Of a DNA stretch of 64,000 bases, positions 9,001-12,000 are shown piece by piece. Source of the stretch: Escherichia coli (GTDB taxonomy: Bacteria; Pseudomonadota; Gammaproteobacteria; Enterobacterales; Enterobacteriaceae); NCBI RefSeq assembly GCF_013315695.1, contig NZ_CP054353.1; one strand, written 5' to 3'. Within the stretch, counting starts at the first letter, position 1. Every line of letters starts with the position of its first letter. The position numbers were made by a program.

Positions 9001-12000
9001 CGGATTCCCCCCGGCAACTGGCGTGGGTTTGGCTGGCTCAGTCGGCGCATCAGACGGGGCATGCAGCGGCGTAAATAACGCTTCTCTTTGCCGGATCTGT
9101 AAAATGGGCAGACCGGTGCCAAAGCGCTGCTGTAAATAGCGGCTCACGGCTTTTTTATCCGGGCGATTTACGCCAGGCGAACGCGCTACCAGCAGATGCT
9201 GGCGCAGCGGCGACGATTCCTGCGCGGGCCACGCCAGCTCGTTTGCAAACCCGGCCTGAACGAGAACCTCCTGCCATGCGGAGCGGGTGAGCATCGGTTT
9301 CTCATCCCGGCGGCGGAAATCGCGGTATCCGCTTAATCCCTCAATAAAGCCCACGCTCGCCAGCTGGAATACGCTGTTTCGCTCCGTCGCTTCAACGATC
9401 AGCAAACGTCCGCCGGCTTTCAGCAACAGTTTTAATCTGCGCAACGTCTGGACGACATGGCTGGCGTCGTGGAGCACATTGACGGCAACGATCAGGTCGT
9501 AACCCGCCTCCGGGTGGGCGGTGAAATCCAGCGGCTGGTTGATGTCGAACAAGGCATAAGACACCTGCGATTCATCATGGAAACGGGCTCTGGCGTCATT
9601 GAGGAACTGCGCGGAGACGTCCGTGAAGTGGTACGACTGTCGCGTGTTCCGCGTGGCCTTCAGCACCGGCGCGGTAGTGGCTGCGGTTCCGGCGCCAACC
9701 TCCAGAATCCGTTCTGCGCTGCACAAGGCGGCAATCTGCGCGGTATAGCGATTCAGACAGGCGCTGGCGGGGTTGTCGCGATACAGCGCGTCGGTAACGC
9801 GATGCTGCTCGTTGAACAGCAATTCCAGCGGAGAACACTGCCCGGAGAAGAGGGCGTCGTGCCGGGCGATGCAGGTTTCCAGATACTGCGCCAGCGCCTG
9901 GCTCCATTGGCTTTGCGGGCACGCTTCCTGAGGCTCAGGAATCTCGCTGAGCGGAATGCGGCAGCGCCAGCTTTCACCTTCGCGGATTAACCACTCTCTT
10001 TCCGTCAGACACTGTAGCCACTGGCGCAGCAGACGCTGGTGAGACGCTTGCGCGGACAGCGCCTGTACTATTGCGCTAAAGCGATGGGCGATCTCCGGCG
10101 TGGTAAACAGGCCGTGACGATTTAGCGTAGCCGCGATCCCCTGTAGCGCACGCGCCTCCAGCCAGCGCCAGGTCGCCTCCAGCTCATCAAGCTGCGCCTG
10201 CTCAGGCAACGGCAGCGCCAGTTGGGTAAGTTCGTGCTCATCAGGCATCGCCGCTGATGGCGAAGGATCGTCGGCCATCACGATATCCAGCGTCAACGCG
10301 CCCTGTTCGGTTATTTCCGCTCTGGCCTGCCGGATGCCGGGGTATTCGAGCGTCGCCTGCTCAATATCCCGCAGGTCGTAGTCCGCCTGCGCGTTCAGCG
10401 GCCAGCGTCGGCGGGGAATGTGCCTGGCGATGCCGCTGGCGAGAGTCTTCAGGCTTTCAGGGGCGGCGATGACGGCTTGCAGGATGGCGCAATAGTCATT
10501 AAACATCGCCTCGGCAGCGCCGGGTTCCAGCACGTTGTCCATGCAGTACCAGCTAAACATCAACTCGCCGTCGCTCTCCATGACCTGATGATCCAGCCAG
10601 ACCTGCGGCGTTTGCGTGAATACATAGCAGGGTTCGCCGAACAGATGGCTCATCGCCTGATCGATAGTCATGCCTTCCAGCGTCATCCCCAGCATACTGG
10701 TAAACACTACCGGCATCAGCGGTTGACGTTGTGATCCGCGCAGGCGGCCCAGCTCACGGATCACCTCAACACCGTTCATTTCACTGTGCGCCATGTTTTG
10801 CCAGAGGCGCTGTTGGGTCTGTTGCATCTGCTCTTGCAACGTCACCGGCGCTGAGAAGTTAAAATCAACCAGCGTGACGGAGGTAAAATCACCAATCAAC
10901 TGGTTGATTTGCGGATGGATCGGCTGGCGATTGAAGAACGTCAGGTTCAGCGTAAATGTTGTGGTACGGCTCCAGCGTTCAAGGGTGGCGGCAAACAGCG
11001 TGAGCAGCGCGGCAGACGGTGTGACGCCTTGCTGCTGCCAGCGCTGTTTCACGGCCTGCCATTCTGTCTTGCCGATCGTCGATTTGAAGGTGGTGAAGTG
11101 TGGCGTTTCCGGGGGCGTCTCAACCACCGGCAGCTCTGGCGCTAAGGGCAGTTGCGGCAGTTTTTCCTGCCAGTAATCCCAGGCATCGTGCCATGCCGAT
11201 GTCTGTCGGCGCGCCTGTTCAGCCATCACATAATCACGGAAGGTAATAGCGAGCGGTGCCAGCGTTTCACCGCGCCAGACCTGCGCCAGGTCGTCCATCA
11301 TGACTTTAAAACTCTGCACATCAAACTGCAAAAGGTCGAGGTTCATATGCAGACGGTAATGGCAATCGTCGATTTCGCTGACCACCAGCTCAAAAAGAGG
11401 CCACTGGTCGGCAGGCAAAACGCGATAGCTCAGTTCATGCCGCCGTTTTTCCAGCGCGATGCGCTGTTCTTCCGGGGAAAGCGCGCGCAGATCGTCACGC
11501 GGGATGTGATACTCCGGCGTTGTCGCCAGGATTCGCTGCTGCCCGTCGGCATCAACCACCATACGCAACATATCGTGGCGTGCGATGAGCTGGTTCCATG
11601 CTTTCTCCAGTATGGCGAGATCGAACTCATCGTGGCGTTTATCCCACTCAAACAGGACGTGACAGGCGTCGCCTCTGGCTTAGAACAGATAAGCTGCGTG
11701 AGTCCATGAGGAGACAGATCCTGCCACGCCCGTTCCGCATTGATGCGTACACCCAGGTAGTGCTGAATATCGCTACTGAGTTCAAGGAAGAGCAGCGAGT
11801 CCATGCCGAGTTGCAACAGATCCTGGTTTGGATGCAGTGACGCCGGATCGCTCAGCCTTAGCTGAACCGCAATCCGCTTTTTCAGCCATGCCATCACCGC
11901 TGTTTCATCGCTCAGGCTGCCGTTAAAGGCGTTGTCATCAGCAGGAGGAATGACCGGCGTTGCGGCTTTTTCTGTGGCGCTGATGTTAAACAGAGCCTGT

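What the first reader, a model, noticed from the sequence alone, without database searches (positions are those of the whole stretch)
11640..11720. Frameshifting deletion in irp1 at the carrier-domain/cyclisation-domain boundary
Downstream of the TAG the frame stays conserved through the carrier domain (...LGMDSLLFLELSS...QLICSKPEATP), then becomes nonsense, while conserved cyclisation-domain sequence (ACHVLFEWDKRHDEFDL...) resumes in another frame. The combined length is about 45 codons short of a full HMWP1 (recalled as ~3163 aa, unverified), consistent with a deletion of roughly 130 bp not divisible by three.
Basis: partly seen in the sequence, partly recalled or inferred. Interest (0 to 1): 0.4.

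Follow-up and report, generated by a model that had tools for sequence, protein, structure and literature searches.

The report
127-bp frameshifting deletion in dead irp1
The yersiniabactin synthetase gene irp1 in this E. coli window really has lost 127 bases at the carrier/cyclisation domain boundary, but this is ordinary gene decay: it is one of three knock-out lesions in a siderophore pathway that a widely sampled clone has already lost.

Summary
Against intact irp1 (9492 nt, 3163 aa), the window lacks exactly 127 bp: irp1 nt 5687-5813, codons 1896-1938, with the junction at window 11663-11669 on the minus strand. The loss removes the ACP-Cy linker and the N-terminal Cy motif FPLTPIQHAYWLGR and shifts the frame.

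In the intact gene the endpoints lie in a 6-bp direct repeat (CGCCTG). They also lie in the arms of a perfect 10-bp inverted repeat that would close the lost segment into a hairpin. This points to slipped-strand mispairing.

The deletion is not an artefact. The same junction occurs in two other complete genomes (MSB1_4I, AF3), in a gut metagenome contig, and in hundreds of public assemblies.

It is functionally redundant. irp1 already carries W1559* upstream and irp2 carries W1860*. All other ybt genes, including the receptor gene fyuA and the importer genes ybtPQ, are intact. The order of the three lesions could not be settled.

RefSeq already flags this gene as "frameshifted; internal stop" in MSB1_4I and AF3, and inactivation of irp1/irp2 in E. 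coli is documented. Interest is low.

The parts
7990..17354 (-). irp1 (HMWP1) pseudogene: 9365 nt instead of 9492
   Evidence: Collinear with NU14 irp1 (L003 21079-30570) apart from the 127-bp gap and point differences. The identical sequence in MSB1_4I is annotated by RefSeq as 'frameshifted; internal stop'.
11663..11669 (-). Deletion junction. A11669 is the last unambiguous base of the left flank. CGCCTG at 11668-11663 is the one retained copy of the 6-bp direct repeat.
   Evidence: Alignment with NU14 and MSB1_4I. A microhomology of 6 bp was computed.
11691..11888 (-). Carrier (ACP) domain of HMWP1. The phosphopantetheine-attachment Ser1853 codon TCG lies at 11798-11796.
   Evidence: Pfam PP-binding match at residues 262-327 of the 413-aa ORF. 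The GMDSL motif has its Ser at residue 1853.
11430..11666 (-). Out-of-frame tail after the junction. P1897 is retained by the microhomology, followed by 77 unrelated residues and TGA at 11432-11430.
   Evidence: Translation; ORF 11430..12671.
10684..11637 (-). Remaining part of the cyclisation (Cy) domain, in the other frame. It lacks its N-terminal motif.
   Evidence: Pfam Condensation match at residues 9-326 of window:7993-11661. The motif FPLTPIQHAYWLGR (HMWP1 1916-1929) lies within deleted residues 1897-1938.
12678..12680 (-). irp1 W1559* (TGG>TAG), at the start of the KR domain and 1 kb upstream of the deletion
   Evidence: Codon-level comparison with NU14. KR domain starts at residue 1559.
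17442..23549 (-). irp2 (HMWP2) pseudogene with W1860* (TGG>TGA at 17972-17970). The stop lies inside the second Cy domain and removes the last carrier domain.
   Evidence: RefSeq note 'internal stop' in MSB1_4I and AF3.
2359..8053 (-). Intact fyuA, ybtE, ybtT and ybtU downstream of irp1
   Evidence: Full-length ORFs. The identical MSB1_4I sequence is annotated as intact proteins.
23740..31062 (.). Intact ybtA (minus strand) and ybtP, ybtQ, ybtX, ybtS (plus strand)
   Evidence: Full-length ORFs. Intact in the MSB1_4I annotation of the identical sequence.

Best explanation
This is a genuine 127-bp deletion in irp1, the gene for the yersiniabactin PKS/NRPS HMWP1.

**What it removes (shown).** It takes out irp1 nt 5687-5813, which encode residues 1897-1938: the ACP-Cy linker and the first conserved motif of the cyclisation domain. 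It also shifts the frame, so no Cy-MT-PCP-TE part can be made in register with the upstream part.

**How it arose (inferred).** The most likely route is slipped-strand mispairing during replication. In the intact gene, the lost segment is bounded by two copies of CGCCTG, part of GGCG[A/T]CGCCTG. These copies sit in the two arms of a perfect 10-bp inverted repeat, AGGCGACGCC...GGCGTCGCCT. A hairpin in single-stranded DNA would therefore place the two direct-repeat copies side by side, and one copy is kept.

**Its consequence here (shown for the genotype).** The deletion is redundant. irp1 already ends at W1559* and irp2 at W1860*, so the clone cannot assemble yersiniabactin. All other ybt genes remain open: receptor fyuA, importer ybtPQ, ybtX, regulator ybtA, and ybtS/E/T/U.

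**Its distribution (shown).** The three lesions travel together in a widely sampled E. coli clone.

**What is not resolved.** The order of the three lesions is unknown. It is also unknown whether loss of synthesis was selected or neutral.
For: **The deletion itself**
- One clean 127-bp gap against intact irp1.

**Domain position**
- PP-binding lies upstream. The Condensation match starts at residue 1948, profile position 34.
- The Cy motif at residues 1916-1929 is also present in HMWP2 Cy1, and it lies inside the deleted residues.

**Mechanism**
- The microhomology at the junction is 6 bp. Only 0.57% of all possible 127-bp deletions in irp1 have 6 bp or more, and 0.25% of deletions of 50-300 bp.
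- The endpoints fall inside one of only about 8 perfect inverted repeats of 10 bp or more, with loops of 20-300 nt, in the 9.5-kb gene: 5681-5690 / 5809-5818.
- That stem appears in both the MFE and the centroid DNA fold.

**Not an artefact**
- The junction 37-mer is in MSB1_4I (Australia) and AF3 (UK). AF3 differs from the window by SNPs, MSB1_4I only in the neighbouring prophage.
- It is also in a human gut metagenome contig and in 5 of 6 further loci.
- The exact frameshift-tailed 401-aa product is listed in 356 index blocks for the window allele and 526 for the other allele. The exact W1559* fragment is in 916 blocks and on 569 contigs.

**Redundancy**
- Both nonsense codons are present. 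In complete genomes they occur only in the same two records as the junction.
- The other ybt genes are intact.
Against: - **Mechanism.** It is inferred from sequence only. The whole 161-nt segment does not fold significantly better than shuffles (z = -1.6).
- **No recurrence.** No independent second occurrence of the junction was found that would mark a hotspot: only 2 of 2265 irp1-bearing complete E. coli genomes carry it, and they belong to one clone; none was found in plasmids.
- **L015.** One metagenome contig carries both stop codons but not the deletion. It is a mosaic that also carries a derived SNP of a deletion-bearing sublineage. It therefore neither confirms nor refutes any order of events.
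- **No phenotype.** Loss of yersiniabactin production was not measured.
Confidence: 0.9

Rival explanations
1. Sequencing or assembly artefact: the 127 bp are present in the organism but were dropped or collapsed by the assembler.
For: None was found. The only prior ground is that indels in long GC-rich synthetase genes are a common error class. L011, a long-read NCTC assembly, does show six single-base indels, several of them in homopolymers.
Against: - The identical junction is in two other complete genomes from different countries and in a gut metagenome contig.
- The exact product with the frameshift tail is recorded in hundreds of index blocks and on 212 contigs, including Broad draft assemblies (UMEA 3304-1, UMEA 3190-1).
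- The missing piece is not repetitive. It is unique coding sequence.
Confidence: 0.01
2. The deletion was the first, primary knock-out of irp1, and the two nonsense codons came later as neutral decay. The alternative is that it arose in an already dead gene.
For: All three lesions co-occur in every isolate genome examined. Either order therefore fits.
Against: The only sequence that has both stops without the deletion is L015, a MEGAHIT metagenome contig.
- It carries the derived allele 12215C of one deletion-bearing sublineage.
- It has interleaved foreign alleles at 7529-8509, 3382/3625 and 26648-26978.
- Its 1590-aa product is found nowhere else.

It is most simply a co-assembly of two strains or a recombinant. 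No genotype with the deletion but without the stops was seen, although the searches for one were limited.
Confidence: 0.3
3. Selected loss ('cheater' or receptor-only state): synthesis was lost under selection to save cost, while FyuA/YbtPQ uptake of yersiniabactin made by neighbours is retained. On this reading the deletion is one of several hits fixed in that process.
For: - Both giant synthetase genes are hit, while fyuA, ybtP, ybtQ, ybtX and ybtA remain full length in the window, MSB1_4I, AF3 and 5 of 6 further loci.
- The clone is common in public data.
- Against the closest intact haplotype (CMZE123), only 5 clone-specific SNPs occur across the compared 20 kb, and 2 of them are nonsense.
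- The cheater idea and an elevated inactivation rate of irp2 are discussed in PMC10282060.
Against: - irp1 and irp2 make up 15.6 kb of the roughly 30-kb island, so they are the largest mutational targets under neutral decay as well.
- There are too few substitutions to test purifying selection on the uptake genes.
- PMC4355413 argues that natural environments select against E. coli siderophore cheaters.
- The window was singled out because the gene is broken, which biases the count of nonsense changes.
Confidence: 0.25
4. The deletion arose by a route other than replication slippage, such as illegitimate end-joining after a double-strand break, and the short repeats are coincidental.
For: A 6-bp repeat is short. 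The overall fold of the segment is not significantly more stable than shuffles.
Against: - Microhomology of 6 bp or more is expected for only 0.25-0.6% of random deletions in this gene.
- Both endpoints fall within the arms of one of about 8 perfect 10-bp inverted repeats in the gene.
- From general knowledge, not tested here: E. coli lacks a canonical NHEJ pathway.
Confidence: 0.1

Closest known systems
Inactivated irp1/irp2 in the E. coli high-pathogenicity island (for example CFT073; survey of 2302 RefSeq genomes in Royer et al. 2023, PMC10282060)
   Same: The yersiniabactin synthetase genes carry nonsense mutations and indels while the rest of the island is kept. These lesions are catalogued as nonsense mutations, small and large deletions and insertions. 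RefSeq annotates this very allele as a pseudogene.
   Different: I did not find the specific 127-bp junction or the W1559*/W1860* pair described in the searched literature. only searched for the strain name MSB1_4I. In complete genomes, these lesions occur in just two records.
Slipped-strand (short-direct-repeat) deletions assisted by palindromic sequence, as classically described for E. coli lacI (from general knowledge, not re-read here)
   Same: - The ancestral sequence has a short direct repeat at each end and one copy is retained.
- The deletion length equals the repeat spacing.
- An inverted repeat can bring the two ends together.
   Different: There is no experimental frequency data. 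Only one occurrence was seen, in a single clone, so no hotspot behaviour is demonstrated.
Siderophore non-producers that keep the receptor ('cheaters')
   Same: Biosynthesis is lost while the receptor and importer genes stay open.
   Different: No phenotype and no population context are known here. The state may equally be neutral decay of the largest genes in the island.

Membership tests
irp1 / HMWP1 (yersiniabactin PKS-NRPS) | Near-identity to reference irp1 over its whole length | tested here: met
   99.6-99.7% identity to the NU14 island in two collinear blocks. 2265 E. coli genomes match, and all the listed top matches are annotated irp1.
irp1 / HMWP1 (yersiniabactin PKS-NRPS) | Domain order KS-AT-MT-KR-ACP-Cy-MT-PCP-TE | tested here: met
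   The Pfam matches of the three ORF fragments, taken together, reproduce the order found in the intact protein.
irp1 / HMWP1 (yersiniabactin PKS-NRPS) | Position in the operon between irp2 and ybtU | tested here: met
   Gene order matches NU14, MSB1_4I and AF3.
irp1 / HMWP1 (yersiniabactin PKS-NRPS) | One uninterrupted reading frame of 3163 codons (a functional gene) | tested here: not met
   W1559* plus the 127-bp frameshifting deletion. It is a pseudogene of this family, not a functional member.
Short-direct-repeat (slippage) deletion | The ancestral sequence has the same short repeat at both ends, and the derived sequence keeps one copy | tested here: met
   CGCCTG occurs at irp1 5687-5692 and 5814-5819, and there is a single copy at window 11668-11663.
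Short-direct-repeat (slippage) deletion | Microhomology longer than expected for random breakpoints | tested here: met
   6 bp observed. Only 0.57% of 127-bp deletions, and 0.25% of 50-300-bp deletions, in irp1 have 6 bp or more.
Short-direct-repeat (slippage) deletion | Secondary structure that brings the two repeats together | tested here: met
   A perfect 10-bp inverted repeat at 5681-5690 / 5809-5818, one of about 8 in the gene. The stem is present in the MFE and centroid folds. The z-score of the whole segment is only -1.6.
Short-direct-repeat (slippage) deletion | Formation during replication, independent of RecA | not testable with these tools
   Needs genetics.
Siderophore cheater genotype | Biosynthesis genes inactivated | tested here: met
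   irp2 W1860*, irp1 W1559* and the deletion.
Siderophore cheater genotype | Receptor and import genes intact | tested here: met
   fyuA, ybtP, ybtQ and ybtX are full length.
Siderophore cheater genotype | Uses siderophore made by others, and the loss is selected | not testable with these tools
   No phenotype or population data are available.

The most novel reading that the evidence does not exclude
A widely sampled human-associated E. coli clone is a stable, naturally selected 'receptor-only' carrier of the high-pathogenicity island. It has lost both synthetase genes through three hits, including this hairpin-guided deletion. It maintains FyuA/YbtPQ/YbtX/YbtA to pirate yersiniabactin, or its metal complexes, from neighbours. 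Possibly it still releases early salicylate-thiazoline shunt products from the truncated HMWP2.
Probability: 0.15. Interest if true: 0.4.

Novelty: already known. Interest (0 to 1): 0.12.

Why it matters
The practical value is small but real in three ways.

- **Typing.** PCR or gene-presence typing that scores irp1, irp2 or fyuA as 'yersiniabactin positive' will misclassify this clone. It cannot make the siderophore.
- **Clone marker.** The 127-bp junction is a clean, specific marker: 2 of 5426 complete genomes carry it, but hundreds of draft and metagenome assemblies do.
- **Worked example.** The coincidence of a direct repeat and a perfect inverted repeat at the endpoints is a tidy natural example of structure-assisted slippage.

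It opens no new biological question.

Tried and rejected
1. **Ordering the three lesions.**
   - SNP-centred 55-mers and the junction 37-mer were searched against complete E. coli genomes. All three lesions are in the same two records.
   - Exact-protein look-ups turned up L015, which has both stops but no deletion. The allele table shows it is a mosaic nested within the deleted clade, and its product is unique to that contig. I rejected it as evidence for order.
2. **Independent recurrence of the junction.** None was found in plasmids. The single metagenome hit, L009, belongs to the same haplotype. Its remaining 2.8 kb has no match in E. coli genomes and its ORFs do not look like E. coli genes, so the contig is chimeric.
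3. **Naming the clone (sequence type).** Literature searches for MSB1_4I, the KTE and the UMEA strain names found nothing useful. No MLST tool was available.
4. **Rescue readings.** A programmed frameshift or a functional split gene was considered and rejected. 42 residues including a core Cy motif are absent, and there is a stop 1 kb upstream.
5. **Insertion in everyone else.** The idea that other genomes carry a 127-bp insertion was rejected. The segment encodes the conserved Cy motif, and only 2 of the 2265 irp1-bearing genomes carry this junction.

Full report
**What is at the coordinates**

Window 1 to about 32500 is the Yersinia high-pathogenicity island (the ybt locus) of E. coli. irp2, irp1, ybtU, ybtT, ybtE and fyuA lie on the minus strand.

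The ORF list shows irp1 in three pieces:
- 12678..17354, 1558 aa
- 11430..12671, 413 aa
- 7990..11571, 1193 aa

A TAG sits at 12680-12678. The frame then reads on through the KR and carrier domains (...LGMDSLLFLELSS...QLICSKPEATP). After that come 77 unrelated residues ending at TGA 11432-11430. ACHVLFEWDKRHDEFDL... continues in another frame.

**The deletion**

A megablast of window 11000-12400 against 5426 complete E. coli genomes matched 2265 genomes. In most of the listed top matches the 1401-base query spans 1528 bases in two pieces.

Alignment with intact irp1 of strain NU14 shows a single gap of 127 bp, and every other column in the surrounding 400 bases is identical. NU14 irp1 is 9492 nt and encodes WP_000369484.1, 3163 aa.

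In gene coordinates the missing bases are nt 5687-5813. They run from the second base of codon 1896 to codon 1938. The lost peptide is PAASQPEVLRHDADERYAPFPLTPIQHAYWLGRTHLIGYGGV, residues 1897-1938.

The window junction is A11669 | CGCCTG(11668-11663) | T11662.

Since 127 = 3 x 42 + 1, the frame shifts.

**Where it lies in the protein**

Pfam on the intact protein gives this layout:

| Domain | Residues |
|---|---|
| KS | 27-402 |
| AT | 551-846 |
| MT | 1093-1194 |
| KR | 1559-1729 |
| Condensation-type (cyclisation) | from 1948, profile position 34 |
| PP-binding (PCP) | 2832-2894 |
| TE | from 2915 |

- The ACP appears as a PP-binding match in the 413-aa fragment, corresponding to window 11691-11888.
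- Its GMDSL serine is S1853, so the deletion begins 43 residues after the carrier serine.
- The deleted stretch contains FPLTPIQHAYWLGR (1916-1929). The same motif, [14 protein letters not shown], starts the first Cy domain of HMWP2 at residues 115-128.
- The deletion therefore removes the ACP-Cy linker and the N-terminal conserved motif of the Cy domain.

**How it probably arose (inference)**

In the intact gene the lost segment is bounded by CGCCTG on both sides. In wider context the repeat is GGCGACGCCTG on the left and GGCGTCGCCTG on the right, and the window keeps one copy.
- A junction microhomology of 6 bp or more is expected for only 0.57% of all possible 127-bp deletions in irp1. For deletions of 50-300 bp the figure is 0.25%.
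- The two copies also lie in the arms of a perfect 10-bp inverted repeat, AGGCGACGCC at 5681-5690 and GGCGTCGCCT at 5809-5818. It is one of about eight such repeats with loops of 20-300 nt in the 9.5-kb gene.
- Folding the intact 161-nt segment as single-stranded DNA puts this stem in both the minimum-energy and the centroid structure. The stem is 10 bp, extended to 13 bp with one bulge, and it closes the deleted segment into a loop.
- The segment as a whole is not significantly more stable than shuffles (z = -1.6).

The anatomy fits the classical picture of slipped-strand mispairing between short direct repeats held together by a hairpin. The picture itself comes from general knowledge. No experiment here shows it.

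**Real or artefact**

The evidence is against an assembly or sequencing artefact.
- A 37-mer centred on the junction has flanks too short to seed a megablast hit on the intact gene. It matches only two complete genomes:
  - MSB1_4I (rectal swab, Australia)
  - AF3 (blood culture, UK)
- The window is neither record.
  - Its island is identical to MSB1_4I up to position 35433, but the adjacent prophage differs.
  - It differs from AF3 at three positions in 31.7 kb.
- The same 37-mer occurs in one human gut metagenome contig.
- The exact 1558-aa product ending at W1559* is recorded on 569 contigs and in 916 index blocks. Named sources include E. coli KTE69 and KTE143.
- The exact 401-aa product carrying the frameshift tail is listed in 356 blocks for the window allele (V1624; UMEA 3304-1, UMEA 3190-1, an NCTC strain). 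The D1624 allele is in 526 blocks.
- Five of the six further loci retrieved carry the junction.

**What else is broken, and what is not**

A codon-level comparison with NU14 shows two nonsense changes.
- irp1 W1559* (TGG>TAG, window 12679) lies at the first residue of the KR domain.
- irp2 W1860* (TGG>TGA, window 17970) lies inside the second Cy domain and ahead of the last carrier domain.

In complete genomes, SNP-centred 55-mers for the two stops match only MSB1_4I and AF3, the two genomes with the junction. The deletion is therefore functionally redundant here, because translation of irp1 already stops 1 kb upstream.

All other genes of the island are full length: ybtS, ybtX, ybtQ, ybtP, ybtA, ybtU, ybtT, ybtE, fyuA and the integrase. 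RefSeq annotates them as intact on the identical MSB1_4I sequence, where only irp2 ('internal stop') and irp1 ('frameshifted; internal stop') are flagged.

The closest intact irp1 haplotype found is in strain CMZE123, with 13 differences in 22.9 kb. Across the compared 20 kb, the clone-specific changes against it are five SNPs plus the deletion. The five SNPs are 10978, 12679, 16421, 17970 and 18108.

**Order of events: not settled**

One locus, L015, has both stop codons but an intact 127-bp segment. It is a MEGAHIT contig from a gut metagenome. Taken at face value, this would make the deletion the last of the three lesions. Three things argue against taking it at face value.
- L015 carries 12215C, a derived allele of one deletion-bearing sublineage.
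- It has foreign alleles interleaved with clone alleles at 7529-8509, at 3382/3625 and at 26648-26978.
- Its 1590-aa product exists in no other contig.

It is most simply a co-assembly of two resident strains, or a recombinant. I do not use it to order the lesions.

**Comparison with what is known**

- Inactivation of HPI genes in E. coli is documented. PMC10282060 cites stop codons in irp1 and irp2 of CFT073 and catalogues nonsense mutations, deletions and insertions in 2302 RefSeq genomes.
  - It finds irp2 among the most frequently inactivated genes.
  - It also raises the cheater hypothesis.
- PMC4355413 argues that natural environments select against such cheaters.
- This exact allele is already flagged as a pseudogene in RefSeq.
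- I did not find the particular junction described in the searched literature. It is nonetheless an instance of a known kind of event in a known gene.

**Verdict**

The feature is an ordinary pseudogene lesion: the third hit in an already dead pathway and a marker of one clone. It has a tidy, inferred slippage mechanism. Interest is low.

The most novel reading not excluded is that the clone is a selected receptor-only carrier of the island. The genotype fits this reading, but neutral decay of the two largest genes fits equally well.

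Noticed in passing
window 12678-12680 (minus strand): irp1 W1559* (TGG>TAG) at the first residue of the KR domain. This stop, not the deletion, is what truncates HMWP1 first.
   Followed up: yes
window 17970-17972 (minus strand): irp2 W1860* (TGG>TGA) inside the second Cy domain. It removes the C-terminal carrier domain of HMWP2. It is found only in the same two complete genomes as the deletion.
   Followed up: yes
L015 / L016 (ENA ERZ27278927 k141_5385): A gut metagenome contig with both stop codons but an intact 127-bp segment. Its SNP pattern is a mosaic: derived 12215C plus interleaved foreign alleles. 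It is probably a co-assembly of two E. coli strains, or a recombinant.
   Followed up: partly
L009 2312-5112: The gut metagenome contig that carries the junction (coverage 3.5x) continues into sequence with no match in E. coli genomes, and its ORFs do not look like E. coli genes. The contig is chimeric.
   Followed up: partly
window 12215 and 12484 (inside dead irp1): Two sublineages of the deletion-bearing clone are distinguished by SNPs that lie between the stop codon and the deletion.
- 12484A (D1624V): the window, MSB1_4I, L010 and L011.
- 12215C: AF3 and L012-L014.
   Followed up: partly
L008 (CMZE123) 1-9490: The closest intact-irp1 relative has lost the left half of its island. P2-like phage tail genes abut a 5'-truncated irp2. 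This is an independent route to loss of yersiniabactin.
   Followed up: no
window about 33860-64000: A lambdoid prophage sits next to tRNA-Ser/mtfA.
- Its integrase, at about 33864-34914, is annotated 'frameshifted' on the identical MSB1_4I sequence.
- Further in, the prophage differs from that of MSB1_4I in patches: no alignment at 39389-40048 and 53107-53214, and many SNPs beyond 53214.
- The island next to it is identical between the two genomes.
   Followed up: no
window 31256-32518 (minus strand): The HPI P4-type integrase is intact here and in MSB1_4I and AF3. NU14 has a stop at codon 394.
   Followed up: no
L011 (GCA_900448625.1, NCTC strain); window positions 3059, 3130, 4125, 4172, 6740, 8069: Six single-base indels relative to the window break fyuA, ybtT and the irp1 3' end in this assembly. 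Several lie in homopolymer runs, so they may be long-read errors rather than further decay.
   Followed up: partly
window 1 to about 2000: An inverse-autotransporter / Ig-like domain gene remnant lies downstream of fyuA. It is annotated as frameshifted and partial in all the compared genomes, including those with a functional island.
   Followed up: no
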